Shown: positions 30,359 through 47,973 of the stretch, in pieces
Layout: every line of letters begins with the position of its first letter
Numbering within the stretch: the stretch's first letter is position 1
Assembly (NCBI RefSeq): GCF_049977125.1
Contig: NZ_JBMFGY010000005.1
Coordinates: 5,965-69,964 of the forward strand
Origin: Acidiphilium sp.
Lineage (GTDB): Bacteria > Pseudomonadota > Alphaproteobacteria > Acetobacterales > Acetobacteraceae
Direction: 5' to 3'
Length of the DNA stretch: 64,000 nucleotides
Translations under genes and position numbers: made by a program
The notes under the pieces: model-generated
Databases searched by the model: none
What the model was told of the DNA's origin: nothing
Seen by the model: the letters and a program-made list of their open reading frames with translations, nothing else

Positions 30359-33005
30359 TCTCTACCGCGCCTTGCGCGCCATCGCCAAGAAACTTTCGGC
30401 GCCACGCATAAATAAGGTCGAGCGCCTGACGCGGCGTGAGTTGATCGGGTGAGGCGGCGGCGAGCGCCTCGCGCCAGGACGTCGCCTCGGGATCTGGCGG
30501 TGGCGCCGCTTCATCGAGACCGGCGAACAGCGGCAGCGGTGGTGCCGCGCCGCGCCCGCGCTCAGCGGCGCGCAGCAGCACATCGGCACGGCGCACCACA
30601 CCCTCCGGCACCCCGGCAAGTTTGGCGACATGCACGCCCCAGCTTCGTTCCGCAGCACCCTCGATCACCTCGTGCAAAAACACTACCTCGCCATGCCATG
30701 ATTTCACCCGCATCGTACAAGGGTGGAGCCGTGGCAACGCGCCACCCAGTTGAATCAGATCATGAAAATGTGTCGCGAAAATGGTTCGGCAGCGCACCTG
30801 TCCGTGCAGCGCCTCGAGTACTGCCTGCGCAATCGCCAAACCATCGCGCGTACCGGTACCGCGACCGATTTCATCGATGATGACGAAACTGCGCGGCCCG
30901 GCCTGATGCAGGATGGCGGCGGTTTCGATCATTTCGACCATGAAGGTTGAACGACCGGCGGCGAGATCGTCGGCGGCGCCGACGCGCGAGAACAACCGAT
31001 CGACCAGGCCGATCCGCGCGGCATCGGCCGGCACCGGCAGGCCAGCCTGGGCGAGGATGATGATCAGGGCGTTCTGGCGCAGGAAGGTCGATTTGCCGGC
31101 CATGTTCGGGCCGGTCAGCAGCATGAGCCGCCGGGCGGGCGAGAGATCAGCGTCGTTGGCGATATACGGCACCCCGGGCGGCAGCGCCGCCTCGACCACC
31201 GGGTGGCGGCCGGCCTCGATGGTGAAATCATGTTCGGTGGTCAGGCACGGGGCGACCCAGCGGCCGTTTTGCGCAAGACTAGCCGCGGATTGCAAGGCAT
31301 CGAGGCGGGCCAGCGCGTCCGCACAGGCGGCAAGCGCCTCCTGCACGGCCATGACACGGTGCAACAGGTGATCGAGCACCAGGGCCTCCCGCGTGGCGGC
31401 GCGCTCATGCGCTTCGGCGATGCGGCGGTCGAGTTCGGAGAGTTCCGGTTGGGTGAAGCGGGCGGCGGCGGCCAGGCCCTGGCGCAGGATGAGTTCGGGG
31501 AATGCGCGCAGGGCCGCGACCGCGCTGGAGGGTGCTTCGAGCACATAGCCGAGTTGATGATGATGGCGCACTTTGAGACTGGCGACACCGTATTTCGAGG
31601 CGAGCTCGATCTGCAGCGCGGCAATCACCTGTCGGGTGTCATCGCGCAGACGGCGTTCACCATCGAGTTCGCCGTCGAATCCGGGGGCGATCGACGGGGC
31701 GTCGCCGGGGCGTTGAGGGGGGGTATCGACCAGGGCGCGGCACAACAGATCGGTGAGTTCGGCCGATGGATCGAGGGCGAGCGCATCGGCGGCGAGCGGG
31801 TGGGTCGGGTCGGTGCTGGCGGCCGGAAGCGCGGCGCGCAGCGCGGCGGCGGCGGACAGGGCGTCGCGTACCTGGGCCAGATCGCGCGGCGCGAGGCGTC
31901 CGGATTTGCCGGCCGCGAGGCTGAGACGGGCGAGGGCGCGGGCGAGATCGGGCGCGCCGCGCAGAGCGTGGCGGATCGCTTGCAGGCAATCAGGCTCGAT
32001 CAGAAGGCTCTGCCAACCGGATTGGCGGGCACGCAGCGGTTCGATCGCATCGAGCGGTTCGGCGATCCAGCGGGCGAGATGACGCGCGCCGGCGGCGCTT
32101 ACCGTGCGTCTGATCGCACCGAACAGGCTGCCGGCTTCGCCGCCATCGCGGGTGCGCAGCAGATCGAGGCTGGCGCGGGTGGCGGCGTCCATCGCGAGCA
32201 GCCCGGCCTCACCCGCGCGCACCGGATGGCCGATGCGCGGCAGATTACCGCCCTGGCTGCGCTCGATGTAACGCAACGCCATCGCGGCGGCCTGCGACTC
32301 GAGATCGCTGAAGGCTCCGAATGCATCGATCGACGCAACGGCAAAGACGCGGGCGAGGTGGCGACGCGCGATGGCGGGGGGCGGGGGCGGATCGGTTTGG
32401 GCGCGGCGGACGGCCAGGGCGCCGAGATCGGCTTGATCGGAAGCCAGGATTTCGGCGGGGTCGAGCCTTGCGAGCAGGGCCGGCAAATCGACGCGTGCGA
32501 TCAAGGCCGTGTCGAAGGCGGCGGTCGAGACATCGATCCAGGCGGCGCCGATTTGCGCGTCATCCGGCACGAGTGCGACCAGAAGGTTTGATCGGCCGGC
32601 CTCGAGCAGGGCTTCCTCGGTGATGGTGCCGGGCGTGATCAGTCGCACCACGGCGCGCTCGATCAGGGACTTGCCACCCGCTGTCTTTGCCGCGCGCGCG
32701 CGGGCGGCCTCGGGTGCCTCGATCTGCTCGGCAATGGCGATCCGAAAGCCACGTTTGACCAGGCGGCCCAGATAGACGTCGCGCTGCGCGACGGGAACGC
32801 CGCACATGCGGATCGGTGCGCCCTGGTGGGTACCGCGCGCGGTCAGGGCGATGTCCAGCGCCGCGGACGCGGCTTCGGCATCGTCGAAGAACAGCTCATA
32901 GAAATCGCCCATGCGAAAAAAAATCAGCGCATCCGGGTATTCGGCCTTCGCTGCAAACCATTGCGCCATGGCGGGGGTTGCGCCGGCGGCGCGATCGAGA
33001 TCCAT
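30351..33005 (-). CDS. mutS: DNA mismatch repair protein MutS
   Basis: 884 aa with the N-terminal mismatch-recognition motif (FFRMGDFYELFFDDA) and Walker A GPNMAGKSTF. Confidence 0.93.
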   Translation of the reverse strand: MDLDRAAGATPAMAQWFAAKAEYPDALIFFRMGDFYELFFDDAEAASAALDIALTARGTHQGAPIRMCGVPVAQRDVYLGRLVKRGFRIAIAEQIEAPEAARARAAKTAGGKSLIERAVVRLITPGTITEEALLEAGRSNLLVALVPDDAQIGAAWIDVSTAAFDTALIARVDLPALLARLDPAEILASDQADLGALAVRRAQTDPPPPPAIARRHLARVFAVASIDAFGAFSDLESQAAAMALRYIERSQGGNLPRIGHPVRAGEAGLLAMDAATRASLDLLRTRDGGEAGSLFGAIRRTVSAAGARHLARWIAEPLDAIEPLRARQSGWQSLLIEPDCLQAIRHALRGAPDLARALARLSLAAGKSGRLAPRDLAQVRDALSAAAALRAALPAASTDPTHPLAADALALDPSAELTDLLCRALVDTPPQRPGDAPSIAPGFDGELDGERRLRDDTRQVIAALQIELASKYGVASLKVRHHHQLGYVLEAPSSAVAALRAFPELILRQGLAAAARFTQPELSELDRRIAEAHERAATREALVLDHLLHRVMAVQEALAACADALARLDALQSAASLAQNGRWVAPCLTTEHDFTIEAGRHPVVEAALPPGVPYIANDADLSPARRLMLLTGPNMAGKSTFLRQNALIIILAQAGLPVPADAARIGLVDRLFSRVGAADDLAAGRSTFMVEMIETAAILHQAGPRSFVIIDEIGRGTGTRDGLAIAQAVLEALHGQVRCRTIFATHFHDLIQLGGALPRLHPCTMRVKSWHGEVVFLHEVIEGAAERSWGVHVAKLAGVPEGVVRRADVLLRAAERGRGAAPPLPLFAGLDEAAPPPDPEATSWREALAAASPDQLTPRQALDLIYAWRRKFLGDGAQGAVEND

Positions 33006-33066: not shown

Positions 33067-35832
33067 ATGTTAAGCGGGCGTTGCATGACATTGCCGCCGC
33101 GCGCCGTCACGAACCGGCATTTGATCCCGATCCTGGCGTTGATCGTCCTGCCCATCGCGGCGAACGGGCTGATGCTTGCCGGTATCACGCATGGCAACCC
33201 TGCGATTTTCGTGATGTTTCTGACCCGAGGATTGGTTGGCGGGTGGCTGCCGGGCGCGCCGGGTTGGCGCGATCCGACGATCGGGTTGATCACCCAGCCC
33301 CTTGGGATGTTGAGTGCGCGCGATTGGTTGCACGGCATTGTTCCCTGGTGGAACCCGTATTCCGGCGTCGGCATGCCGCTGGCGGCGGAAATGCAGACGA
33401 TGTCATTTTTTTTGCCGTTCGTGCTGCTGCTGAAATTCTGGGGCGGCTGGCTGGCGTTGAAACTCATCATCCAGATCCTGTGTGGATTGTTCACCTATGC
33501 GCTGCTGATCGAGTTACGCCTGACCCGGCTGGCCGCTGGGCTGGGAGCGCTGTTCTTTGCGCTTTCACCGACGATTTATCTGGTGCCGCATGTAATGGGG
33601 CCGCTGCCGTTCGCACCGCTGCTACTACTCGGCATCGAACGCGCCGATCGGGCCGCGCGCGACAGCAGGGGGCTGGGCTTCGGTTTGATTCCGGTGGCGC
33701 TGGCGTATTCGATTTATGGCGGCTACCCCGAAGTTGCTTATGCCGACGCAACGCTGGCGGCGGTATGGACGATCTGGCGCTTCGCCGGCGCGGGCGCCGC
33801 ACGGTGGCGATTCGCCCGCAAGATTGTTCTGGGCTGCGGCATCGGGCTGGTGATGAGCCTGCCGCTGGTGGTGCCGTTTTTCCAGTATGTCCGTCTGTCC
33901 TACCTTGGGCAGCACGCTGATTTATATAGCTGGATCTGGTTGTTGCCGCCCGGCGCACCGTTGCAATTGTTTCCGTTCATTTACGGGCCGATCGGCGCGC
34001 TGACGCCTCCGGGCGTGTCACCGGTATTGTCCAATCTGATCACGGCGAGTTGGAACCAGCTCGGTGGCTGGTTCGGGCCGCTGGCGGCGCTGCTGGGTCT
34101 GGCCGCGATTATCCGGCCGGGGCGGCTGCGTGGACTGGGCTTCGTGCTGACCGGATTTATTCTGGTCTGGCAGTTGCGCATCTGGGGATTTCCTCCGGCG
34201 GTCTGGCTGATCGACCGGATTCCGTTGATGGCGCGCACCAATGCGATCAGGTTCAGCGGTCCGGCAATGGAACTCGCCTGTTTCATCCTGCTCGCGATCA
34301 CCGTCGATCGCTGGCAGACCGGTGGAGCGTTCGATCGCCGCGCCGTTTGGTGCCTGAGTACGCTCGGTGCCGCGATCGGTCTGTTCGCGGTGCTGCCAGC
34401 GCTGCGCAGTCTGATTGACTGGTTCGCGCCCGGTACCGCGATGCTGGGATTTGCGCTGGGGGCCACGGGTATCGAACTCGCTCTTGCGGTTGCGGCGGTG
34501 ACGCTGTTGACCCGTCCACCGGGTCGAGCGACGACGCTCGCGCTTACGCTCGTCGTCGGGACGGAGTGTTTCGCGACCGCAGCACTCAGCCAGTTCGCGG
34601 CGCCTCGTCATGGCACGATCGACCTTAGCGGTGTTGCGTATTTGCAACGTCATCTGAGGCTGGCGCGGCTTTATTCATTGCAGCCGTTCGGGCCGAATTA
34701 TCCGGCGGCGTTCGGGCTGGCGGCGATCGATGAAAATGAATTACCGGTGCCCGCAGCATGGAACGACTACATCCATCGCCATCTCGACCCCTATGCCGAT
34801 GTGGTGATGTTCACCGGCTCTCAGGCACGCAGCATAGGTTGCACCCTGCTGCCGCGCGCGGCGGCGGCGTTGCGCGATGGCGTGTTCATCCGTCCACAAC
34901 GCTCGGTGACGCCGCCCGATCAGAGTGCCGAATTGCGGCGCCATCTCGCGGCATACGGCGCGATTGGGGTGAAATACGTGCTGACGCCACCGGATCAGAA
35001 TCCGTTCGTCACCCACGCGGATCTGCCGGTGACCTCGGCCGGGCAGGTGCCATTTGCCCTGCCTGCGGGCGGTGTGCTGAGCGGCGACATTCCGGCCGGC
35101 ACGATCTCCTTGCGCCATGTCGATCGGGTGGATGTGTTGATCGGCACCTATGACGGCGCGGCCCGCGGCGCACTGAGTGTGCAACTGTGTACTCGCAAAA
35201 TATGCGCCACGGGCCATGCCGAACTTGCAACAGCACAGGATGATCATTTTCTGGCAATCAAGCTCGATCACCGCCTGGATGTGCCGGTCGATGCCGGATT
35301 GCGCTACCGGTTCACCCATCGGCACGGGGCGGCGGTGGCGATCTGGCTGGGCAGCTTTCGGATCGATGCGCCGCCGGCGCTGGCGGTGGGCGGCATCGCG
35401 CCGCCGCACGCACCGCTGCTCCGGCTGATCGACACACCGCGCGATGCACCACCGCTGGTGTTTGCCAACCAGGTCATGCGGATCTACCGGCTGGATCGGC
35501 CGCGCGAATTTTTTACCACCGTTCCGGCTTGCCACCTGACCCGCCTCGCGATCGATGCGGTGGATGCCGACTGCCCGGCACCGGCGCGGCTGCTGCGGCT
35601 TGAAGCCTATTATCCGGGATGGCACGCGCGCATCGCTGGGCGAGCCGTGCCGATCGAGCGGACAGAATCGATCTTTCAGTCCGTGGCATTGCCCGCGGGG
35701 CGCAGCAAGGTGCGGTTTTTCTATCGCCCACCGTTCATTCGGATAAGTTGCGCTATGGCTCTGGCAGGACTCGCAATGTGGCTCGGCCTGATGCTCGCAT
35801 CGGTTCTGCGGGCGCGCCGCGCCCGACGGTGA
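33067..35832 (+). CDS. Large polytopic membrane protein, YfhO-like / GT-C-fold putative glycosyltransferase
   Basis: 921 aa. The N-terminal ~480 aa has many TM helices, followed by a ~400-aa soluble region and one terminal TM helix (AMALAGLAMWLGLMLASVL). This architecture resembles the YfhO family. Family assignment is by architecture only. The ATG at 33085 is an alternative start. Confidence 0.55.
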   Translation: MLSGRCMTLPPRAVTNRHLIPILALIVLPIAANGLMLAGITHGNPAIFVMFLTRGLVGGWLPGAPGWRDPTIGLITQPLGMLSARDWLHGIVPWWNPYSGVGMPLAAEMQTMSFFLPFVLLLKFWGGWLALKLIIQILCGLFTYALLIELRLTRLAAGLGALFFALSPTIYLVPHVMGPLPFAPLLLLGIERADRAARDSRGLGFGLIPVALAYSIYGGYPEVAYADATLAAVWTIWRFAGAGAARWRFARKIVLGCGIGLVMSLPLVVPFFQYVRLSYLGQHADLYSWIWLLPPGAPLQLFPFIYGPIGALTPPGVSPVLSNLITASWNQLGGWFGPLAALLGLAAIIRPGRLRGLGFVLTGFILVWQLRIWGFPPAVWLIDRIPLMARTNAIRFSGPAMELACFILLAITVDRWQTGGAFDRRAVWCLSTLGAAIGLFAVLPALRSLIDWFAPGTAMLGFALGATGIELALAVAAVTLLTRPPGRATTLALTLVVGTECFATAALSQFAAPRHGTIDLSGVAYLQRHLRLARLYSLQPFGPNYPAAFGLAAIDENELPVPAAWNDYIHRHLDPYADVVMFTGSQARSIGCTLLPRAAAALRDGVFIRPQRSVTPPDQSAELRRHLAAYGAIGVKYVLTPPDQNPFVTHADLPVTSAGQVPFALPAGGVLSGDIPAGTISLRHVDRVDVLIGTYDGAARGALSVQLCTRKICATGHAELATAQDDHFLAIKLDHRLDVPVDAGLRYRFTHRHGAAVAIWLGSFRIDAPPALAVGGIAPPHAPLLRLIDTPRDAPPLVFANQVMRIYRLDRPREFFTTVPACHLTRLAIDAVDADCPAPARLLRLEAYYPGWHARIAGRAVPIERTESIFQSVALPAGRSKVRFFYRPPFIRISCAMALAGLAMWLGLMLASVLRARRARR

Positions 35833-38209
35833 AGCTGGTGACGGTTCGACCCGTTTCGAACAAATCGAGGATTTTGTCCGCGCGCACCGGCGGCGAAAAC
35901 AGATAACCCTGCCCGTCGTTGCAGCCATAGCTTTTCAGCACCGCGGCGTGACGTTCGGTTTCGATGCCCTCGGCCGTTACGCGCAGACCCAGCGTATGGC
36001 TGAGTTCGATGATCGCCTTGACGATCGGCGCATCGTTTTCGTTGCATGCGAGATCGTTGATGAAACTGCGGTCGATTTTCAGACGGTCGAACGGAAAGCG
36101 GCGCAACGTCGCGAGGGAGGAATAGCCAGTGCCAAAATCGTCGATTGCGATGCGGCACCCAAGGGCGCGCAGCCCGTGCAGATGTTCGATTGTGCGCCCT
36201 TCGGTTTCGAGCACGGCGGATTCGGTGACTTCGAATTCGATCCGAGCGGGGGTGACGCCGGCCGCCTCGATGATTGCGTGGAGTTGGTCGACCAGCCAGG
36301 CCTCGCGCAGGTGCAGCGGCGAGAGATTGACCGCGACAGTGATGGCCGGAGGCAGCTTGGCCGCGAGCGCGGTGGCCTCGGCCAGCACGAAGGCCGTGAC
36401 GGTGCTGATCAGCCCGCTGCGTTCAGCGATTTCGATGAAATCACCGGGTGGGATAATGCCGCGTTCCGGATGGCGCCAGCGCACCAGGGCTTCAAGACCG
36501 ACAATGCTGCTCGAGGCAAGGGCGATAACCGGTTGGAATTCGACGAACAACTGATCGTCACGCAAGGCGCGTTTCATGTCGCGCTGGAGGCCGCGCCGAT
36601 CCTGTAAATGGCGGTCCATCGTGCGATCGAACAGCCGCCAGGTGCCGCGACCGGAATCTTTCGCACGATACAGGGCGAGATCGGCGTTTTTATACAGATC
36701 CTCGGCTGTGGTACCGTCCCGTGGGGCGAGTGCGATGCCGATGCTGACACCGATTTCGACGGTAACCCCATCGAATTTATAAGGGCGGGCCACACGGTCG
36801 ATGACCCGTTCGGCCACAGATGTCGCTTCGAACTCATCATCCGACGGCAGGACAATGGAAAATTCATCCCCTCCGAGACGAGCGGCGACGTCGCGATCGC
36901 GGATCGCGCCGCGAATCCGGTGCGCCACCGCGCGCAGGACCGAATCACCCATCCCATGGCCATAGGAATCATTGACCGCCTTGAACTGATCAAGATCAAG
37001 ACAGAGCAGCGCCGCCCCCGGCTGACGATCATCGCTGAGCCACTGGCTCAGGGTATTGTTGAATTCGGTACGATTGGCGAGGTCGGTCAAGGAATCGTGG
37101 CGGGCCAGATGGGCGATGCGCTCGCGCGAGCGGTGCATGGCGGTGACATCGGACCCGACGCCACGATACCCGATGAAATTGCCGCGGCGATCCTCGATCG
37201 GTTTGCCGGTCATCGACCACCAGCGTCGTTCACTGCCCATGCTGACCGGGACCACCAGATCGCGGAATGGCTTGCGTGCAGCCATCTGCCGACGCATCGC
37301 CTCGAAGGCGTCTCCCGCTGCCACCGAGGGTCGGCGCAGGGTCTCGTCGGCGCCGGCCATGAAGGTGAACAGATCACCGCCGATCGCCTCCACGGGCCGT
37401 CGTGCCACTTCGGCGAAACGGGCCGATACCTGTTTGATCTGACCCGAAGCATCGGTTTCCCACAACCAGTCGCTGGCATTTTCCTCGAAATCGCGCAGCA
37501 GGATGCGGATGGTTTCAGTGGTTTGAGCGAGGCGAATGGAGCCGATGTTGCGTTCAAACAATCGTCGATTGACATAGAATATCGATGAAATCGCCAAAAA
37601 ACTGTAGCCTAGAAAGCAGACAACAATGGGCCAGACTTCGAACTTGTAGTTCAAAACGATAATCACGACGGTACCCGTGATGATCGGCATAACGAATAAC
37701 AGTGATGACAGGATTGGTCCTGCCGTTGTCGCCGTTGAAATGAGGCCGATCACAACACCGAACAATAATCCGCTTTGGAGTTTATCCGCAAACGACATCA
37801 ATCTGTCGATATAGATAATCCAGTCACTACCAATCAAAAATATCAATATGTTATATATATTTTTAAAGCGACCTGATTCAATCGAAAAGAATTTCATATA
37901 TTGATATGTTCGACAGAACGTTGATAGTAACGTGTATAATAATATTAGTGAAATAAAAAGCGCATTTGCAAAAGCGTTATATCGGTTATTTTGAAATTCA
38001 AAATAAATTGCAACCGTGATTATGATTCCGATTAGCGCGGAAGTCGCGCTGAGTTTCGCCCGAACGATAAACTGATCGTTTTCAACTTGCCGAACAAGAT
38101 CCTCCGACTCCCGGGCGTTGGCGTTCCCGGTCTCCAACAGCATTCTCAGTCGCTGAGCAAACGGCATCGTCATCGCACGAGCGTGATAGCGAGGGCGACA
38201 ATTTGACAC
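35753..38209 (-). CDS. Membrane-bound PAS-GGDEF-EAL protein (c-di-GMP synthase/phosphodiesterase)
   Basis: 818 aa. About 6 TM helices at the N-terminus are encoded by AT-rich DNA. A PAS-like segment follows (DWLWETDASGQIKQV). It has an intact GGDEF (RLGGDEFSIV) and an intact EAL (VGLEALVRW ... GYLFSPP). The start is uncertain: GTG 38209, ATG 38173 or ATG 38167. Confidence 0.85.
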   Translation of the reverse strand: MSNCRPRYHARAMTMPFAQRLRMLLETGNANARESEDLVRQVENDQFIVRAKLSATSALIGIIITVAIYFEFQNNRYNAFANALFISLILLYTLLSTFCRTYQYMKFFSIESGRFKNIYNILIFLIGSDWIIYIDRLMSFADKLQSGLLFGVVIGLISTATTAGPILSSLLFVMPIITGTVVIIVLNYKFEVWPIVVCFLGYSFLAISSIFYVNRRLFERNIGSIRLAQTTETIRILLRDFEENASDWLWETDASGQIKQVSARFAEVARRPVEAIGGDLFTFMAGADETLRRPSVAAGDAFEAMRRQMAARKPFRDLVVPVSMGSERRWWSMTGKPIEDRRGNFIGYRGVGSDVTAMHRSRERIAHLARHDSLTDLANRTEFNNTLSQWLSDDRQPGAALLCLDLDQFKAVNDSYGHGMGDSVLRAVAHRIRGAIRDRDVAARLGGDEFSIVLPSDDEFEATSVAERVIDRVARPYKFDGVTVEIGVSIGIALAPRDGTTAEDLYKNADLALYRAKDSGRGTWRLFDRTMDRHLQDRRGLQRDMKRALRDDQLFVEFQPVIALASSSIVGLEALVRWRHPERGIIPPGDFIEIAERSGLISTVTAFVLAEATALAAKLPPAITVAVNLSPLHLREAWLVDQLHAIIEAAGVTPARIEFEVTESAVLETEGRTIEHLHGLRALGCRIAIDDFGTGYSSLATLRRFPFDRLKIDRSFINDLACNENDAPIVKAIIELSHTLGLRVTAEGIETERHAAVLKSYGCNDGQGYLFSPPVRADKILDLFETGRTVTSFTVGRGAPAEPMRASGRATLRVLPEP

Positions 38210-38318
38210 TCCTCAAAGTTGTGATTCGGCAACGTTAAATTTATTGAAAACGTCGTGGCCTTTACATCTTCTGTTAAGTATTTTGTCATGAGGTACAACC
38301 GAAGATAAAGGAGTTACC

Positions 38319-39137
38319 GTGGTGAATGATCCTGGAGTGGCAACGACTCATATAAATCGCCTTAGCAATGAGTCCCTCGAAGGCAGCATCGCCGAACAGT
38401 TGTTCGCAAAAATTGTAACAGATGCGCAGGATTTCGAAGTAGCCTTCGCACTGCGATACCGGGCGTATTTCAATGCGGGTTATCTCAAAAACATCGACCA
38501 TCATAGTTTTTCTGACATATACGATGATCGTCCATCAAGCAAAACAATCCTGATCTATCGCGGCGAACAAGCGGTGGGGTCGATCCGGGTCTGCGTGTTG
38601 GATCGCGCCAAGCCGGACGCGATCGATCTGCCCGCATCCAGGATGTTTCACGAAGAAATTGACAATCTCTTAACCGTGCCACCGCATTCTACGGCGCCTC
38701 GCAGGGCTGTCGAGATCACCCGCTTGGCGCGCGACCCGGAACGCCTGGATGATCGGCGCGTGCTATGGGCGATGTTTCGAATGGTTGGGTATCTGATCAT
38801 CGCCAACAATGCGGACATCGTGTTCGTGGCTGTCACAAAAAATCACATGCCGCTCTACCGCCGAATGGGATATCAGATCGTCGCGGCGCCTAAAGCCTAT
38901 CCTGGTTTGGATGTCGAAACCGGTCTGATGGCTTGTTTTCGCGATGATTTCACAAGCGTACAGCGGCAGGTTGCCATATTGGGCAGTGTGTCCCGATCGA
39001 GTTTGATCTATGCGGATTTCATTGGCGGCAACAAAGTACCCGTGTTTGAGGACGCCGTAACCGACGTCTCCAGCCGATTGATCAGCAACCGTACCGACGC
39101 GCGGGGCACTGAAACCGGTGTTCGAAAAATCGCCTGA
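38319..39137 (+). CDS. GNAT-fold N-acyltransferase, N-acyl amino acid synthase (FeeM)/LuxI-like
   Basis: 272 aa. The GTG start has an AAGGAG SD 8 nt upstream. It has an N-terminal FALRYRAYF..GY motif, then D.YD and G..VGS.RV, then an EITRLA core. This pattern is shared by LuxI, FeeM and OlsB-type acyl-ACP/CoA-dependent N-acyltransferases. The family call is by motif only. Confidence 0.5.
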   Translation: MVNDPGVATTHINRLSNESLEGSIAEQLFAKIVTDAQDFEVAFALRYRAYFNAGYLKNIDHHSFSDIYDDRPSSKTILIYRGEQAVGSIRVCVLDRAKPDAIDLPASRMFHEEIDNLLTVPPHSTAPRRAVEITRLARDPERLDDRRVLWAMFRMVGYLIIANNADIVFVAVTKNHMPLYRRMGYQIVAAPKAYPGLDVETGLMACFRDDFTSVQRQVAILGSVSRSSLIYADFIGGNKVPVFEDAVTDVSSRLISNRTDARGTETGVRKIA

Positions 39138-39216
39138 GGGGCGCGCCCACGCATCAGGCGAATGTAACGAATCTATTCATCTAACAAAAATCGGGGAACC
39201 GCCAAGACTCAATTCC

Positions 39217-39239
39217 GACTGAACCCCGCCGGTTCAGTC
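39217..39239. terminator. Hairpin between convergent genes (possible bidirectional terminator)
   Basis: GACTGAACC-ccgcc-GGTTCAGTC is a perfect 9-bp stem. It lies 17 nt past the gcdH stop and 80 nt past the acyltransferase stop. No U-tract. Confidence 0.35.
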
Positions 39240-39255
39240 AGATCGAAGGCTGTAG

Positions 39256-40482
39256 CTAGAAGGCAGAGAGACCGGTCTGCGCCCGCCCCAGAATAAGGGC
39301 ATGCACATCGTGCGCGCCTTCATACGTATTCACGGTTTCAAGGTTCAACAGATGACGGATGACATGGTATTCATCGACGATCCCGTTGCCGCCGTGCATG
39401 TCGCGCGACAGGCGGGCGATGTCGAGTGCCTTGCCGCAATTGTTGCGCTTCAACAGCGAAATCATTTCTGGCGCCGCTTCGCCGGCATCAAGCAGGCGAC
39501 CGAGGCGGAGTACGGCTTGCAGCCCGAGGGTGATTTCAGTCTGCATATCGGCCAGTTTTTTCTGAACCAATTGTGTGCCGGCGAGCGGACGGCCGAACAT
39601 CTGACGATCCAGCGTGTACTGCCGGGCGGCATGCCAGCAAAACTCGGCGGCACCGAGCGCACCCCAGGCGATGCCATAGCGCGCGTTGTTGAGGCAGGAA
39701 AATGGTCCCCGCAGTCCCTTCACGCCGGGCAGCATATGATCGTCCGGCACGAACACGTCGGACAGCATGATCATGCCGGTAATCGAGGCACGGAGCGAAA
39801 ACTTGCCCTCGATTTTCGGGGTCTCAAAGCCTTTGCTCGCACGATCAACCAGAAAGCCGCGGATAACGTCGGCATCGTCCTTGGCCCAGATCAGCGCCAT
39901 GTCCGCGATCGGCGCGTTGCTGATCCAGGTTTTGGAGCCGTTCAGCAGATAGCCGCCGTCAACCTTCCGTGCGCGCGTCCGCATTGATCCGGGGTCCGAC
40001 CCGGCGTCCGGCTCGGTCAGGCCGAAGCAGCCGACCCAGTCACCGCTACGCAGTTTGGGCAGGTATTTATCCTGCTGCGCCGGCGATCCGAAGGCGGCGA
40101 TCGGGTACATCACCAATGAGGATTGCACGGAGAACACCGAGCGATAGCCGCTATCAACCCGTTCCAGTTCGCGCGCGATCAAACCGTAGGCGACGTAGGA
40201 GACATCGGCGCAACCGTGGCTGGCGAGCGTCGCGCCCAGAAACCCCATCGCGCCCATTTCGGAAACGATGGCACGATCGAAGGTTTCGGTGCGAAAGGCG
40301 TGCAGCACGCGGGGGAGCAGCTTCTCCTGGGCGTAATCATGGGCGGCGTCGCGGATGGCGCGCTCGTCCTCGCTCAATTGTGGTTCAAGGTGCAGCGGAT
40401 CGGCCCAGTCGAAGGGGATGAATCCCCCTTTCTTCGGAGCGGTTGCGGGTCCGGGAGCGATCACCTTGAGCATTTCATTCAC
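39256..40482 (-). CDS. gcdH: Glutaryl-CoA dehydrogenase
   Basis: 408-aa acyl-CoA dehydrogenase fold ([12 protein letters not shown]) with a C-terminal ...[23 protein letters not shown] typical of GCDH. Confidence 0.82.
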
Positions 40483-42017
40483 GCCGCAATCTCCGTGTCG
40501 TCGTTATGAGTGTCCTCCCCATCATGGAAGGCCGGTTCCGGCTCCGTTGTACGGCGGCGCCGAGTTATGTGCATGAAGGCGGGAACATCCTCGCCGAATC
40601 CGACCACGATGCTCCGATCCTCGACGATATCGCTGTCGCGGCGGGCAGGTCGCGGCGCGTCGCGCCGGGGTGCGGCACGAGGCGGGAGGCGGGATGATTT
40701 TCGATCGTCTCCTCGAGCGGCCTCGACCGGGGTTTCGCGGCGTGGCGGCGTGGTGATTTCGACCGCGGGCGCATCGGCGCGGGCCATTGATTTTGACCGC
40801 GCTGCGGGAGCGGATGTGCGGCCGCGGCTCCGACCCCGTTTTTCACTTACCGCCCATTCGACCGGATCAAGCCCCTCGACCGCGAGGGGTGGAATGGCAT
40901 GGCCGGTCAATTTCTCGATCGCCTCAACCGCTAGACGGTCATCCGGCGTTGCGAGGGTGAGCGCACGGCCTTCAAGCCCGGCGCGGCCGGTGCGACCGAT
41001 CCGATGGACGTAATCTTCCGCGTGATGCGGCACGTCGAAATTGAAGACATGCGATAGCCCACCGATGTCGATGCCGCGCGCCGCGACATCCGAACAGACG
41101 AGCAAACGGATCGTGCCGGCCTTGAACGCCTCCAGGGTTGCAAAGCGCGCCGATTGCGGCATGTCGCCATGTAGCATTCCGGTCGAAAAACCGTGCCTGG
41201 ACAGGGATTTATAGAGGATATCGACGTCTCGCTTGCGGTTGCAGAACACTAGGGCATTCTGCACGTCCTCTGTGCGCACCAGGCGGCGCAGCGCCTCGCG
41301 CTTATCATGGGTGGCGACCAGAAACAGTCCTTCGGTAATGGTGGTTGCGACCGAGGCTGGTTTGGAGACGCTGATTTCCTTGGGATTCCAGAGAAACGCA
41401 TCGGCGAGGCGCTTGATCTCCGGCGCCATGGTCGCTGAGAAAAACAGGGTTTGCCGCGGCTTCGGCAACATGGCGACGATCCGCTCGACATCTGGAATGA
41501 AGCCCATGTCCAACATGCGGTCGGCCTCGTCGATCACCAGCACCCGCACATCCGAGAGCAGCAGACCGCCACGCTCGAAAATATCGATCAGCCTTCCCGG
41601 CGTCGCGATCAGGACATCGACGCCGCGGGTCAGCACATCGCGCTGCTCGCCCATGCTCTCGCCGCCGATCAGCAGCGCGTGGGTGAGTTTGAGATGCTTG
41701 CCATACTGCACGAAATTTTCCGCGACCTGCAGGGCGAGTTCACGAGTCGGCTCCAGGATCAGCGAGCGGGGCATCCTGGCGCGGGCGCGTGAACCGGACA
41801 GAATATCGAGCATCGGCAGTGTGAAGCTGGCGGTCTTGCCGGTGCCGGTCTGCGCGCAGCCAAGTACATCACGCCCCATCAGTACCATCGGGATGGCCTG
41901 CTCCTGGATCGGTGTCGGCGTGGTGTAGCCTTTTTCGAGCAATGCCCGCAGCACTGGTTCGGACAGACCAAGAGCGGCGAAACCGGTCGCCTCGTTCAGC
42001 GCGTCCGGATCAGTCAT
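40479..42017 (-). CDS. DEAD-box ATP-dependent RNA helicase (RhlE-like) with a basic C-terminal tail
   Basis: Has the Q-motif (GYTTPTPIQ), [16 protein letters not shown] and [11 protein letters not shown] chose the ATG at 42017 ([13 protein letters not shown]...). The ORF-track start at 42110 is a TTG. The stop overlaps the gcdH ATG by 4 nt. Confidence 0.85.
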
Positions 42018-44595: not shown

Positions 44596-45321
44596 ATGAC
44601 AGCAAATCATACGATCATCGGAATTCTGATCGGGATGGGTTTCCTCGCCGGCTCCGGCGCGAGAGCGGCGGCAGCACCCTCCGCCGCGACCGTACTCAGC
44701 CTGACGGTGATCGGGCGGGCGGATCACACACCCGACCAGCTTGTCGCCAGAATGTCGGTTCAGGATGACGCGCCGACCGCCGCTTCGGCTCAGGCGGCGG
44801 TGAACCGGACGATGGGACTGGCGCTGGCTCAGGCTGAGGCGATCAAGGGACTGCATGTCACCACCGGGAGCTATGATGTGGCTCCGACGGATCCGAAACA
44901 CACAGCCTGGCATGCGCAGCAGACGATGATACTGCGCTACGCCGCCTCACCCAACACAGCGGCCACCGCGGCGGTGCGCCGCCTGATCGGCTCGTTCCAG
45001 GCGAGATCGATTGTGCTTGACGGTATCGCAGGGGGTCTCAGTTCCGCGGCCGCCCGTGACACACGTGAACGGGCGATCGCGGATGCGGTACGCCAATTGC
45101 GGGCCGAAGCCGCTGCCACCGCATCAGCCCTCGGCGATCGGGTCGGCGCGATCACCAGGATAACCCTCACCGGTCAGACCCCCTTCCACCCGCTGATGCT
45201 GGCCATGCGTTCGGCAGAAGTGGTGCTGCCTCAGACGCAACCGGGCGCGATAACCGAGCAGATCAGCCTGTTCGCGACAGTTGAGTTACATCCGGCACCG
45301 TCAGCCGGTTCGAAACGGTAA
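44596..45321 (+). CDS. SIMPL-domain (DUF541) periplasmic protein
   Basis: The ORF was trimmed to the ATG at 44596 (MTANHTIIGILIGMGFLAGSGARAAAAP..., a signal peptide). It is 241 aa, Ala-rich and two-lobed like the 26-kDa periplasmic immunogenic protein family. Confidence 0.6.
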   Translation: MTANHTIIGILIGMGFLAGSGARAAAAPSAATVLSLTVIGRADHTPDQLVARMSVQDDAPTAASAQAAVNRTMGLALAQAEAIKGLHVTTGSYDVAPTDPKHTAWHAQQTMILRYAASPNTAATAAVRRLIGSFQARSIVLDGIAGGLSSAAARDTRERAIADAVRQLRAEAAATASALGDRVGAITRITLTGQTPFHPLMLAMRSAEVVLPQTQPGAITEQISLFATVELHPAPSAGSKR

Positions 45322-46843: not shown

Positions 46844-46980
46844 GTCACCAACTTTACATTACTCAAAATACATCTCCGGAATATAACTGATCGACGATTT
46901 CATCGCTTCTTATCGGCCCCCTCTAGCCAGCTTCGCAGATTACGTCCAGAACGGCGCCGGATTTCAACTCTTTTTCTTGA

Positions 46981-47973
<993 letters not shown>

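What the first reader, a model, noticed from the sequence alone, without database searches (positions are those of the whole stretch)
37550..39250. Sharp AT-rich islet whose left boundary falls inside the GGDEF-EAL gene
From about 37.55 kb to about 39.25 kb the sequence switches from the window-typical high GC to visibly AT-rich DNA. Examples are atatatatttttaaag and aataatattagtgaaataaaaag. By eye it is roughly one third G+C at its core, against roughly two thirds elsewhere; I did not compute this. The switch happens within the 35753-38209 ORF. The PAS, GGDEF and EAL parts are GC-rich, but the ~6-TM N-terminal module (about the first 220 codons) is AT-rich. The 109-nt divergent promoter region and the neighbouring acyltransferase gene are also GC-depleted. 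This pattern fits a horizontally acquired cassette (sensor module plus acyltransferase) fused in frame onto a resident c-di-GMP enzyme. I saw no integrase, transposase or tRNA at the edges.
Basis: seen in the sequence. Interest (0 to 1): 0.65.

Follow-up and report, generated by a model that had tools for sequence, protein, structure and literature searches.

The report
Swappable AT-rich synthase–sensor gene cassette
The AT-rich patch is real, but it is not a foreign piece newly fused to a resident gene: it is an old, hypervariable cassette (a lipid-synthase gene plus the membrane-sensor part of the neighbouring c-di-GMP enzyme) that occurs as several very different versions, which related acid-loving bacteria exchange between conserved flanks, much like the "dialect" loci of bacterial cell-to-cell signalling.

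Summary
Window 37550-39250 has 48% G+C (core 37760-38045: 31.5%) against 63% for the window (z about -6.7). It is the lowest stretch in the 64 kb. The trough falls inside a real ORF: codons ~46-150 have GC3 0.2-0.5, against 0.71 downstream.

The "new fusion from a foreign donor" reading fails. The 6TM-PAS-GGDEF-EAL architecture, the divergent FeeM-family N-acyl amino acid synthase gene and the flanking synteny are conserved across Acidiphilium. FeeM lies directly upstream in all 28 testable metagenome loci of the closest subfamily. An exhaustive search found no outside donor. There are no mobility marks, and substitution directions show no amelioration.

"Membrane composition" also fails. Homologous TM modules in A. 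cryptum and in soil relatives are GC-rich.

The islet coincides exactly with a hypervariable block: FeeM, the promoter region and TM codons 1-~205. This block exists as at least four deeply diverged types, and the types do not follow the flanking phylogeny. Two genomes about 91% identical in the flanks carry unrelated cassettes (FeeM 31% identical). FeeM divergence tracks TM-module divergence after controlling for the C-terminus (partial Mantel r 0.73-0.89).

Best reading (inferred): a pherotype-like cognate lipid-signal synthase and membrane receptor pair that controls c-di-GMP. The cause of the AT-richness is unresolved. An excess of GC-to-AT substitutions appears to maintain it locally.

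The parts
37570..39255 (.). Hypervariable, GC-depleted cassette as a whole: 3' intergenic spacer, FeeM gene, divergent promoter region and the first ~205-214 codons of the GGDEF-EAL gene
   Evidence: Nucleotide identity to seven related loci drops from 0.7-0.9 to ~0.3-0.55 between ~37600 and 39250. The same block boundaries appear in the L118/L119 pair. G+C is 0.48, z = -6.7.
35753..38209 (-). 6TM-PAS-GGDEF-EAL c-di-GMP enzyme gene (818-codon ORF from GTG 38209; an ATG at 38173 is an alternative start)
   Evidence: ORF and translation. Pfam: PAS_4, GGDEF and EAL. Full-length orthologues of 785-805 aa exist. AF2 model has mean pLDDT 87.9. The GGDEF motif, the RxxD I-site, and the EAL and DDFGTGYSS motifs can be read.
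37535..38209 (-). N-terminal membrane module (residues 1-225): a cytoplasmic lead helix plus six TM helices. TM6 runs without a break into the linker helix that enters PAS
   Evidence: AF2 on the TM part alone: pLDDT 89.7, pTM 0.81, helices 32-71, 79-105, 112-138, 143-161, 166-186 and 193-244. No Pfam or NCBIfam match. Homologous across the family, with conserved positions G61, Y92, W130, L148, P165, W173, P175 and G179.
37760..38045 (-). AT-rich core (TM1-TM3, codons ~55-150): lowest G+C of the window, lowest GC3 and most divergent protein segment
   Evidence: G+C 0.315. GC3 0.20-0.37 and a CAI-like index of 0.25-0.42 against 0.71 downstream. FYMINK residues 49% and GARP residues 15%, against 22% and 38% in A. 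cryptum. Mean pairwise identity 0.22-0.26.
37133..37569 (-). Conserved left flank where the cassette ends: end of TM6, linker helix (NRRLFER...ETIRILLRDFEENASDWLWETD) and PAS domain
   Evidence: Invariant or near-invariant columns L237-T252. Identity recovers to 0.67-0.76 at 37450-37600.
38210..38318 (.). Divergent intergenic (promoter) region between the GGDEF-EAL gene and the FeeM gene
   Evidence: G+C 0.376. Not alignable with relatives. Sigma-70-like matches in 37400-39400 are not above shuffle expectation: 5 found against 3.1 +/- 1.9.
38319..39137 (+). FeeM-family N-acyl amino acid synthase gene (272 codons)
   Evidence: PF21926, E = 2.4e-31, 109 bits against a cutoff of 27. Invariant R46, Y50, D66, D69, S88, R90, E132, R135, H176, Y180 and R182 across 15 diverse homologues. 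Only 31-50% identical to the FeeM of other Acidiphilium loci, while ACAD is 85-90% identical.
39138..39255 (.). Spacer between the convergent FeeM and ACAD genes, with a 12-bp-stem hairpin (39214-39242). This is the right edge of the variable block
   Evidence: Inverted repeat I5. Identity 0.13-0.39 at 39100-39250, then 0.73-0.80 from 39250 onward in the six loci that reach this flank (L003 ends here).
39256..40482 (-). Conserved right flank: acyl-CoA dehydrogenase gene
   Evidence: Pfam Acyl-CoA_dh_N/M/1. 85-90% amino-acid identity to all Acidiphilium loci.

Best explanation
The AT-rich islet is a discrete polymorphic cassette sitting in a conserved, syntenic chromosomal backbone. It holds a FeeM-family N-acyl amino acid synthase gene, the divergent promoter region, and the first ~205 codons of the neighbouring gene. 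Those codons encode the six-helix membrane module of a PAS-GGDEF-EAL c-di-GMP enzyme.

Shown:
- The gene pair and the domain architecture are ancestral.
- The cassette exists as at least four deeply diverged types in Acidiphilium: A (A. rubrum group, A. cryptum, L118, L008), B (this window and L003), C (L005, L119) and D (L036).
- The types are distributed against the phylogeny of the flanks.
- The block always ends at the same two places: the ACAD stop codon, and the TM6/linker junction.
- Synthase divergence tracks membrane-module divergence, not C-terminal divergence.
- Within a type, FeeM is under purifying selection (dN/dS about 0.1). For TM1-3, one within-type pair (L001/L006) also gives about 0.1.

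Inferred:
- Whole cassettes are exchanged by homologous recombination in the conserved flanks, or are kept as an old polymorphism across species.
- The reason would be that the synthase and the membrane module are a cognate pair. The synthase would make an N-acyl amino acid that partitions into the membrane. The six-helix module would recognise it. TM6, through its continuous helix into PAS, would shift the balance between c-di-GMP synthesis and breakdown. Different types would be different 'dialects', as in the agr and comQXP pherotypes.

The AT-richness is a second, lineage-specific layer. In this clade the cassette has a lower local compositional equilibrium (GC* about 0.35-0.44, against 0.59 in the flanks). 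An approximately two-fold excess of GC-to-AT substitutions produces it, and it has reshaped both synonymous sites and amino-acid composition. Its cause is not settled. The most likely causes are that the mutational AT bias goes unopposed inside a block that cannot undergo gene conversion with non-cognate alleles, and weaker codon selection.
For: Architecture and synteny are conserved. FeeM is immediately upstream in 28 of 28 testable loci of the close subfamily, 19 divergent and 9 co-directional. It is absent from more distant relatives.

The block coincides with the islet.

Identity matrices for the window against other Acidiphilium loci:
- ACAD 85-90%, MutS 77-85%, C-terminus 75-80% (64% to A. 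cryptum)
- FeeM 31-50%, TM4-6 29-64%, TM1-3 19-38%

Incongruence with the flanks has 100%/0% bootstrap support in three independent triplets.

The cleanest case is L118 against L119. Flanks are ~91% identical in nucleotides, ACAD 98% and the C-terminus 94% in amino acids. FeeM is 31%, TM4-6 35% and TM1-3 26% identical, with the breakpoints at the ACAD stop and at TM6.

Partial Mantel test of FeeM against TM4-6, controlling for the C-terminus: r = 0.73 (39 loci), 0.89 (Acidiphilium clade) and 0.76 (other loci); p = 0.0002 in each.

Within type A, FeeM dN/dS is 0.07-0.11. For TM1-3, dN/dS is about 0.10 in the L001/L006 pair; dS was saturated in the other within-type pairs. Catalytic-type residues are invariant.

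The membrane module folds with high confidence, and TM6 is continuous with the PAS linker.

Composition:
- GC-to-AT rate per GC site is 0.122 in the cassette against 0.058 in the flanks (Fisher p = 2e-9).
- AT-to-GC rate is 0.094 against 0.084 (p = 0.41).
- FYMINK/GARP shift.

Precedents from the literature:
- RpfF synthase next to the RpfR PAS-GGDEF-EAL receptor (PMC6361424)
- the agr hypervariable region spanning agrB, agrD and agrC (PMC10482373)
- a variable ComP membrane domain with a conserved cytoplasmic part (PMC4008528)
Against: - No chemistry, binding or expression data exist. Signal production and recognition are inference only.
- FeeM and the TM module are physically adjacent. Any replacement tract would carry both, so co-variation does not by itself prove functional matching.
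- Coexistence of types within one species is not shown. L118 and L119 are ~91% identical in the flanks, so they are sister species or distant strains.
- Within types B and C, FeeM identity is only ~50%, so 'types' may be a continuum.
- The AT-richness does not follow from the pherotype idea. Equally diverged cassettes in soil relatives, and the type A cassette of A. cryptum, are GC-rich.
- Low-identity windows elsewhere in the region are not AT-rich.
- The counts of polarised substitutions in TM1-3 are small (12 against 17).
- The FeeM assignment rests on the Pfam model. The profile match to the FeeM crystal-structure sequence is weak (E = 0.14).
Confidence: 0.6

Rival explanations
1. A foreign, low-GC cassette (sensor module plus acyltransferase) was recently acquired horizontally and fused in frame onto a resident cytoplasmic PAS-GGDEF-EAL enzyme, creating a new architecture.
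For: Atypical composition with sharp edges. The cassette's history differs from that of the flanks.
Against: - The same architecture, gene pair and position occur in all relatives, including distant ones with C-termini about 50% identical.
- There are no tRNA, repeats or mobility genes at the edges.
- An exhaustive search gives no donor. The best hit to residues 1-235 is a family member at 32% identity. The nearest FeeM is 51% identical.
- There is no amelioration signal. In TM1-3, GC* is 0.35 against the present G+C of 0.28.
Confidence: 0.04
2. A composition or translation effect of membrane segments. Hydrophobic helices need U-rich codons, and rare AT-ending codons slow translation for co-translational membrane insertion. 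On this view the AT patch is a by-product of encoding a TM domain.
For: Low GC1/GC2 in codons 136-225 with near-normal GC3. A rare-codon cluster and a CAI-like drop over TM1-3. The coding strand is T-rich.
Against: - Homologous six-helix modules in A. cryptum and in about 40 soil or peat loci are encoded with GC3 0.75-0.99 and total G+C about 0.60-0.70, the same as their C-termini.
- The neighbouring 921-aa YfhO-like membrane protein has GC3 0.74.
- The soluble FeeM gene and the intergenic spacers are also depleted.
Confidence: 0.05
3. Neutral hypervariability. The synthase and the membrane module are simply weakly constrained and fast-evolving. They are carried together in recombination tracts because they are adjacent. 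Mutational AT bias shows through. No type-specific signalling is involved.
For: - The order of G+C follows the order of divergence: TM1-3 < TM4-6 ~ FeeM < C-terminus.
- There is an excess of GC-to-AT fixation.
- A related strain in run X3 differs by 7% at 37612-37876, against 1-4% in most flanking pieces.
- Adjacency alone can generate co-variation.
Against: - Within a type, dN/dS is about 0.1 for FeeM and for TM1-3 (one pair).
- Catalytic-type residues are invariant across types.
- The module folds confidently.
- Differences between types are step-like. They are incongruent with phylogeny and have recurrent, identical breakpoints.
- The gene pair is retained in 28 of 28 loci despite changes in orientation.
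- Other low-identity windows are not AT-rich.
Confidence: 0.2
4. The AT-rich DNA is itself the selected feature. It would be a binding platform for a nucleoid-associated silencer of AT-rich DNA, or a set of internal or antisense promoters. On this view it controls expression of the divergent pair, for example through a long FeeM leader antisense to the 5' end of the receptor gene.
For: - The AT trough is kept at the same position in all cassette types of the clade, even though the sequence is not alignable.
- Its local equilibrium G+C is low rather than relaxing toward the genome value.
- Four promoter-like matches lie on the FeeM strand inside 37553-38026.
Against: - Promoter-like matches are not enriched over shuffles: 5 against 3.1 +/- 1.9.
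- The trough is centred ~300 nt inside the gene, not on the intergenic region. A GC-normal stretch (codons 1-45) lies in between.
- A. cryptum and the soil relatives do without it.
- No usable RNA data were found.
Confidence: 0.1
5. Protein-protein pairing rather than signal pairing. On this view the synthase docks on the cytoplasmic face of the membrane module, as RpfF binds the FI domain of RpfR. Alternatively, c-di-GMP from its neighbour regulates the synthase. The product would be a membrane or surface lipid, not a diffusible signal. Co-variation would reflect an interface.
For: RpfR binds and inhibits its synthase (PMC6361424). NAS-PilZ fusions link this enzyme class to c-di-GMP control (PMC4897644). 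FeeM co-varies with the TM module but not with the C-terminus.
Against: The most variable part (TM1-3) is largely membrane-embedded in the model. Pfam finds no c-di-GMP-binding domain in the 272-aa FeeM protein. Neither point excludes this reading.
Confidence: 0.2

Closest known systems
Pherotype loci of Gram-positive quorum sensing: the agr hypervariable region of staphylococci (agrB-agrD-agrC) and comQXP of Bacillus subtilis
   Same: - A hypervariable block spans the signal-making gene(s) and the membrane-sensor part of the receptor.
- The cytoplasmic catalytic part and the flanks stay conserved.
- There are discrete, deeply diverged types.
- The types do not follow strain or species phylogeny.
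(PMC10482373, PMC4008528; here.)
   Different: - Those signals are peptides, and the receptors are histidine kinases in Firmicutes.
- Here the synthase is a FeeM-family acyltransferase, the output is a GGDEF-EAL c-di-GMP enzyme, and the host is an alphaproteobacterium.
- Type-specific signalling and coexistence of types within a species are untested here.
- The strong AT shift is not a defining trait of those loci.
RpfF/RpfR (BDSF) system of Burkholderia and Cronobacter
   Same: A lipid-signal synthase gene sits next to a PAS-GGDEF-EAL receptor that converts the signal into c-di-GMP turnover. The synthase and the receptor also interact functionally (PMC6361424, PMC4698668).
   Different: RpfF is a crotonase-family enzyme, and RpfR is soluble and binds the fatty acid in its PAS domain. 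Here the synthase is FeeM-like, and the part that co-varies with it is a six-helix membrane module. I know of no polymorphic cassette behaviour reported for rpfF/R (own knowledge, not searched).
FeeM and other N-acyl amino acid synthases (NAS) from environmental DNA, including the NAS-PilZ fusions Nas343 and Nas354
   Same: The Pfam FeeM family match. A fold related to autoinducer synthases and a proposed signalling role. A link between NAS enzymes and c-di-GMP (PMC4897644).
   Different: The link here is by gene neighbourhood to a c-di-GMP-metabolising enzyme with a membrane sensor, not by fusion to a PilZ receptor. The product is unknown. The sequence match to the FeeM crystal-structure protein itself is weak.
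Low-GC polymorphic surface-polysaccharide loci (for example O-antigen clusters with AT-rich wzx/wzy membrane-protein genes). This comparison is from my own knowledge, not tested here.
   Same: Allelic cassettes between conserved flanking genes. Highly diverged membrane-protein genes. G+C well below the genome value, without mobility genes.
   Different: Those are multi-gene biosynthetic clusters under selection from phage and host immunity. Here the unit is 1.7 kb, and one of its ends lies inside a gene, at a domain junction.

Membership tests
FeeM-family N-acyl amino acid synthase (Pfam PF21926) | Match to the family model above its curated threshold | tested here: met
   109.1 bits against a cutoff of 27, E = 2.4e-31, residues 42-205. 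The orthologous neighbours in all fetched loci carry the same Pfam hit.
FeeM-family N-acyl amino acid synthase (Pfam PF21926) | Conserved catalytic glutamate and the surrounding core of the FeeM / autoinducer-synthase-like fold | tested here: inconclusive
   E132, R135, S88, R90, H176 and Y180 are invariant in 15 diverse homologues. The profile match to the FeeM structure sequence 2G0B is weak (E = 0.14) and covers only residues 152-199. Equivalence of E132 to the FeeM catalytic Glu was therefore not verified.
FeeM-family N-acyl amino acid synthase (Pfam PF21926) | Makes N-acyl amino acids from acyl-ACP | not testable with these tools
   Needs expression and LC-MS.
PAS-GGDEF-EAL c-di-GMP enzymes | PAS, GGDEF and EAL domains with intact catalytic motifs | tested here: met
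   Pfam PAS_4 (2.5e-7), GGDEF (1e-44) and EAL (1.3e-72). The motifs RDRD-x5-GGDEF, EAL, DDFGTGYSS and EGIE are read in the translation. Foldseek top hits are GGDEF-EAL structures (PA0575, MorA) at E about 1e-38. Which activity dominates is untested.
Pherotype-type polymorphic signalling locus (agr / comQXP kind) | A hypervariable block covers the signal-synthesis gene and the membrane-sensor part of the receptor. The cytoplasmic part and the flanks are conserved. | tested here: met
Pherotype-type polymorphic signalling locus (agr / comQXP kind) | Discrete types distributed against the phylogeny of the surrounding genome | tested here: met
   Three triplet bootstraps at 100%/0%. L118 and L119 have ~91% identical flanks but unrelated cassettes.
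Pherotype-type polymorphic signalling locus (agr / comQXP kind) | Several types coexist within one species or population | tested here: inconclusive
   The closest pair with different types has ~91% flank identity. Metagenome contigs 90-95% like the A. rubrum flanks do not cover its cassette, but coverage is fragmentary.
Pherotype-type polymorphic signalling locus (agr / comQXP kind) | A secreted signal activates its cognate receptor and not (or inhibits) non-cognate receptors | not testable with these tools
   No chemistry or genetics is available. Co-variation of synthase and sensor (partial Mantel r 0.73-0.89) is only compatible with this feature.
RpfF/RpfR-type lipid signalling | Crotonase-family DSF synthase and ligand binding in the receptor's PAS domain | tested here: not met
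   The synthase is FeeM-like, not crotonase. The segment that co-varies is the membrane module, not PAS. The analogy is functional only.
Horizontally acquired genomic islet | Mobility marks at the edges (tRNA, direct repeats, integrase or transposase) | tested here: not met
   The nearest tRNAs are at 18-25 kb. Only chance-level 12-21 nt repeats were found. The flanking genes are ACAD and YfhO-like.
Horizontally acquired genomic islet | Absent from the same site in related genomes | tested here: not met
   A homologous cassette is present at the same site in every related locus.
Horizontally acquired genomic islet | Composition relaxing toward the host value (excess of AT-to-GC changes) | tested here: not met
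   For the cassette, GC* is 0.44 against a present G+C of 0.49. For TM1-3, GC* is 0.35 against 0.28. The GC-to-AT rate is 2.1-fold that of the flanks. Counts are small for TM1-3.
Described membrane sensor domains (MASE, MHYT, 5TMR-LYT and similar) | Match to a curated domain model or to a solved fold | tested here: not met
   No Pfam hit at E <= 0.01 and no NCBIfam hit at E <= 0.1 for residues 1-240. Foldseek against PDB gave nothing at E <= 0.001. The best by probability is the membrane domain of the diguanylate cyclase ImcA, 8wcn_B (prob 0.96, TM-score 0.52), followed by the adenylyl cyclase 9 TM domain.

The most novel reading that the evidence does not exclude
This would be a pherotype system in a Gram-negative lineage, built from parts not known to be used this way. 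A FeeM-type N-acyl amino acid synthase would make a type-specific lipid signal. An undescribed six-helix membrane domain would read it inside the membrane and feed it directly into c-di-GMP turnover. Whole synthase+sensor cassettes would be maintained as an ancient polymorphism across species and exchanged between Acidiphilium species. The AT-rich composition would mark a block that is shut out of gene conversion with non-cognate alleles.
Probability: 0.3. Interest if true: 0.8.

Novelty: new variant of a known kind. Interest (0 to 1): 0.62.

Why it matters
If the pairing is functional, three things follow:
- It gives a physiological role and a candidate receptor to the FeeM / N-acyl amino acid synthases, which are so far known mostly from metagenomic clones.
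- It defines a new membrane sensor domain for c-di-GMP enzymes.
- It extends 'dialect' (pherotype) polymorphism, a hallmark of peptide signalling in Firmicutes, to lipid signalling in Proteobacteria.

For acidophile communities (mine drainage, acidic hot springs), it offers a testable handle on kin or strain discrimination and on biofilm control.

For genome evolution, the locus is a compact natural experiment. It is a 1.7-kb block with a locally different G+C equilibrium inside a conserved backbone. That makes it useful for separating mutational bias, gene conversion and selection.

There is also a practical point. The AT-rich 5' third makes gene callers truncate the protein and lose the sensor domain. 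The window's own entry starts at M174, and several orthologues are called at 557-654 aa.

Tried and rejected
- A search for flanking direct repeats, tRNAs or mobility genes found nothing.
- The promoter/terminator scan was not above shuffle expectation.
- A word-indexed homologue search with residues 1-235 returned nothing. The exhaustive HMMER search then found only family members at 32% identity or less.
- The FeeM homologue search returned only the query itself and one 51% relative.
- Searches for RNA evidence of transcription starts failed. The window's organism is present only in low-coverage hot-spring DNA runs. The 'RNA' runs that match A. rubrum gave fragmentary contigs with no coverage of the cassette. 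They are not usable for 5' ends.
- Searches with FeeM against solved structures were weak. The single sequence gave nothing, and the profile gave only E = 0.14 to 2G0B.
- Foldseek with the TM module gave no significant match.
- The second-lowest G+C stretch of the window (46.8-47.0 kb) was checked as a possible second islet. It is an ordinary divergent intergenic region.
- Upstream genes of the FeeM-less distant relatives are unrelated to each other, so there is no alternative partner enzyme.
- 'Fast evolution alone makes DNA AT-rich in this genome' was considered and set aside. Other low-identity windows (32350, 40600) are among the most GC-rich.
- No paper in the library holds both 'FeeM' and 'diguanylate cyclase'.

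Full report
**1. The observation**

The window has 62.9% G+C. The lowest 200-nt window of all 64 kb is 37801-38000 (27.5%), and the lowest 500-nt window starts at 37501 (39%).

The trough is inside ORF 35753-38209(-). Pfam finds PAS_4 (residues 243-359), GGDEF (369-522) and EAL (543-774) in this ORF and nothing in residues 1-240.

The ORF is genuine. Over 37550-38209 the coding frame has no stop codon, while the other five frames have 11-17. AlphaFold models the N-terminus confidently (pLDDT 89.7, pTM 0.81) as six long helices, and the last one runs on into the PAS linker.

GC3 does not step at the domain border:
- codons 1-45 are normal (0.60-0.63)
- codons ~61-135 fall to 0.20-0.37
- codons 136-225 are intermediate
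- the rest of the gene averages 0.71

A codon-adaptation index built from neighbouring genes falls from 0.71 to 0.25-0.42 over the trough.

The neighbouring gene 38319-39137(+) is a FeeM-family N-acyl amino acid synthase (PF21926, 109 bits). It is moderately depleted (G+C 0.534, GC3 0.60).

**2. Not a new fusion**

A homologue search with the whole protein found full-length orthologues of 785-805 aa in Acidiphilium at 60-71% identity. They have alignable N-terminal membrane modules, with conserved G127, W130, L148, P175, G179, Y202 and N214.

The window's own database entry is only 645 aa and starts at M174. Several orthologues are likewise called short, which looks like an effect of the AT-rich 5' part on gene callers.

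Contigs that carry these orthologues all show the same neighbourhood: DEAD helicase, acyl-CoA dehydrogenase (ACAD), a divergent FeeM gene, the GGDEF/EAL gene, a YfhO-like gene, MutS and GlnD. A. cryptum keeps DEAD-ACAD-FeeM-GGDEF/EAL.

A metagenome scan used the conserved junction motif (LLRDFEENASDWLWETD). In the closest subfamily, every locus with at least 1 kb of upstream sequence has a FeeM gene directly upstream. That is 28 of 28, with 19 divergent and 9 co-directional. More distant family members lack FeeM and have unrelated neighbours. The gene pair is therefore old and selectively retained.

**3. Not a membrane-composition effect**

The same GC3 trough at the same codons appears in nearly all loci of the Acidiphilium/Acidocella clade. 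GC3 for codons 76-100 and 101-125:

| Locus | 76-100 | 101-125 |
|---|---|---|
| L001 | 0.24 | 0.36 |
| L005 | 0.04 | 0.36 |
| L006 | 0.28 | 0.28 |
| L036 | 0.16 | 0.18 |

. The homologous module of A. cryptum has GC3 0.84-0.88. Those of about 40 soil or peat relatives have GC3 0.75-0.99, equal to their C-termini.

In the window, TM1-3 holds 49% FYMINK and 15% GARP residues. In A. cryptum the figures are 22% and 38%. The DNA bias has reshaped the protein, not the reverse.

**4. What the islet coincides with**

I aligned the window region to seven related loci. Nucleotide identity is 0.7-0.9 in the flanks. It is ~0.3-0.55, the level of unrelated sequence, from ~37600 to 39250. The right edge is sharp, at the ACAD stop (39256). 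The left edge is at the end of TM6.

Amino-acid identity of the window to other Acidiphilium loci:

| Segment | Identity |
|---|---|
| ACAD | 85-90% |
| MutS | 77-85% |
| PAS-GGDEF-EAL | 75-80% (64% to A. cryptum) |
| FeeM | 31-50% |
| TM4-6 | 29-64% |
| TM1-3 | 19-38% |

**5. Cassette types and incongruence**

The cassettes fall into groups:
- A: L001, L006 (A. rubrum ATCC 35905), L007, L118, A. cryptum L004, L008
- B: the window and L003
- C: L005, L119
- D: L036

These groups cut across the flanking phylogeny. All three comparisons below have 100%/0% bootstrap support:
- By MutS+YfhO the window is closer to L001 than to L003 (80% against 70%). By cassette it is closer to L003 (52% against 35%).
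- L003 and L036 are sisters in the flanks (83%) and in the C-terminus (89%), but L003's cassette is closer to the window's (52% against 38%).
- L001 shares its cassette type with A. cryptum (59%) rather than with the window (35%), although its C-terminus is closer to the window (79% against 63%).

The cleanest case is L118 against L119. Their flanks are ~91% identical in nucleotides, ACAD is 98% identical and the C-terminus 94%. Identity collapses from the ACAD stop to TM6, where FeeM is 31%, TM4-6 35% and TM1-3 26% identical. The block has the same two ends as in the window.

**6. Co-variation and constraint**

Across 39 loci, FeeM divergence follows TM-module divergence after the C-terminal divergence is removed. 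The partial Mantel r is 0.73 overall, 0.89 in the Acidiphilium clade and 0.76 in the others, with p = 0.0002 in each.

The decoupling from the C-terminus also occurs among GC-rich soil loci. L054 and L062, for example, have a C-terminus 81% identical, TM4-6 31% and FeeM 50%.

Within type A, FeeM has dN/dS 0.07-0.11. For TM1-3, dN/dS is about 0.10 in the L001/L006 pair, with both dN and dS raised; dS was saturated in the other within-type pairs. Catalytic-type residues of FeeM are invariant across types. These are working genes that differ in steps between types.

**7. Origin of the AT-richness**

An exhaustive HMMER search of 1.84 billion representative proteins with residues 1-235 found 44 relatives. 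The best is 32% identical. The full-length hits (about 750-820 aa) are the size of the same architecture, the rest are shorter proteins or fragments, and no outside donor appeared. The nearest FeeM in 5.8 billion proteins is 51% identical.

I polarised substitutions on the L001 and L006 branches with L007 as outgroup:

| Measure | Cassette | Flanks | Fisher p |
|---|---|---|---|
| GC-to-AT changes per GC site | 0.122 | 0.058 | 2e-9 |
| AT-to-GC changes per AT site | 0.094 | 0.084 | 0.41 |
| Implied equilibrium G+C | 0.44 (TM1-3: 0.35) | 0.59 | |

The AT-rich state is therefore near a local equilibrium. It is not foreign DNA being ameliorated.

The cause remains open. Hypervariability alone is not enough, because the soil relatives and A. 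cryptum lack the trough. Other low-identity windows nearby are GC-rich.

**8. Mechanism proposed**

Shown: the anatomy, the conservation of the pair, the cassette behaviour and the co-variation.

Inferred:
- The synthase makes an N-acyl amino acid.
- The six-helix module recognises it in the membrane.
- TM6, with its continuous helix into PAS, transmits the signal to an enzyme whose GGDEF motif, I-site and EAL motifs are all intact.
- Cassette types act as signalling dialects.

The closest precedents are:
- the agr and comQXP pherotype loci (PMC10482373, PMC4008528)
- the RpfF/RpfR fatty-acid system, in which the synthase gene neighbours a PAS-GGDEF-EAL receptor and the two proteins also touch (PMC6361424)
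- N-acyl amino acid synthases fused to a PilZ c-di-GMP receptor (PMC4897644)

A survey of quorum-sensing genes in acidophiles does not mention this pair (PMC9040811). No paper in the library holds both 'FeeM' and 'diguanylate cyclase'.

**9. Limits**

- No chemistry, genetics or transcript data exist for this locus.
- Adjacency could explain the co-variation.
- Coexistence of types within a species is not shown.
- Counts for TM1-3 in the polarised analysis are small.
- The membrane module matches no described domain and no solved fold with significance. The best lead is the membrane domain of the diguanylate cyclase ImcA (prob 0.96, TM-score 0.52).

**10. Verdict**

The unit and its separate history are right.

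The feature is best filed as a new variant of a known kind: a pherotype-like polymorphic synthase/sensor cassette, here built from a FeeM-type enzyme and a c-di-GMP enzyme.

Noticed in passing
window 37688-38209 (residues 1-173 of the ORF); also P0009, P0011-P0015, P0017, P0020: The database's own gene call for this protein is 645 aa and starts at M174, so it drops most of the membrane module. Several orthologues are likewise called at 557-654 aa. The AT-rich 5' third seems to mislead gene callers, and annotations lose the sensor domain.
   Followed up: partly
window 35753-35832: The 3' ends of the convergent GGDEF-EAL gene and the YfhO-like gene (33067-35832, +) overlap by 80 nt. A similar overlap of about 100-107 nt is called in L001, L118 and L119. 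The overlapping tail of the GGDEF-EAL protein (residues 792-818) is modelled with pLDDT < 50.
   Followed up: no
L001 vs L006, ACAD-DEAD side against YfhO side: ACAD and DEAD are 99% identical between L001 and A. rubrum L006, while YfhO on the other side of the cassette is only 90% identical. Polarised substitution rates are about 5-fold lower on the ACAD side. This suggests separate recombination histories for the two flanks as well.
   Followed up: no
L040, L058-L061, L063-L066: In nine soil-metagenome relatives the FeeM gene lies upstream on the same strand as the GGDEF-EAL gene, with a gap of 386-764 nt, instead of divergently. The pair is kept even though its orientation changed.
   Followed up: partly
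window 46844-47001: The second-lowest G+C stretch of the window (0.435 over 200 nt) is an ordinary divergent intergenic region. It lies between a glycosyltransferase-like ORF (45263-46843, -) and a GDP-mannose 4,6-dehydratase-like ORF (47002-47973, +).
   Followed up: yes
window 37834-37856 / 37891-37913 and 39214-39242: There is an imperfect 23-nt inverted repeat (78% complementary, 34-nt spacer) in the middle of the AT core. A 12-bp-stem hairpin lies between the convergent FeeM and ACAD genes and could be a bidirectional terminator.
   Followed up: no
window 37612-37876, run X3: A hot-spring metagenome run holds a strain variant of this organism. It carries the same cassette type but has 19 differences in 265 nt (7%) in the AT core. 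Most flanking pieces differ by 1-4%.
   Followed up: partly
window 40600-40750 and 32350-32500: Patches of low identity to relatives (0.42-0.64) lie inside the DEAD helicase and MutS genes. They are among the most GC-rich stretches of the region (0.73-0.75), the opposite of the islet.
   Followed up: no
L100: A family member (797 aa, no FeeM neighbour, valyl-tRNA synthetase upstream) sits in a 41% G+C organism. Its GC3 is uniform at 0.34-0.40 along the gene. So low-GC lineages do carry this membrane-module family, although none resembles the window's cassette.
   Followed up: no
L001 5010-6011 vs L002 5010-5819: The same FeeM gene is called as 333 aa in one assembly, where it overlaps the start of the GGDEF-EAL gene, and as 269 aa in another. 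Start-codon calls in the AT-rich divergent region are unstable.
   Followed up: no
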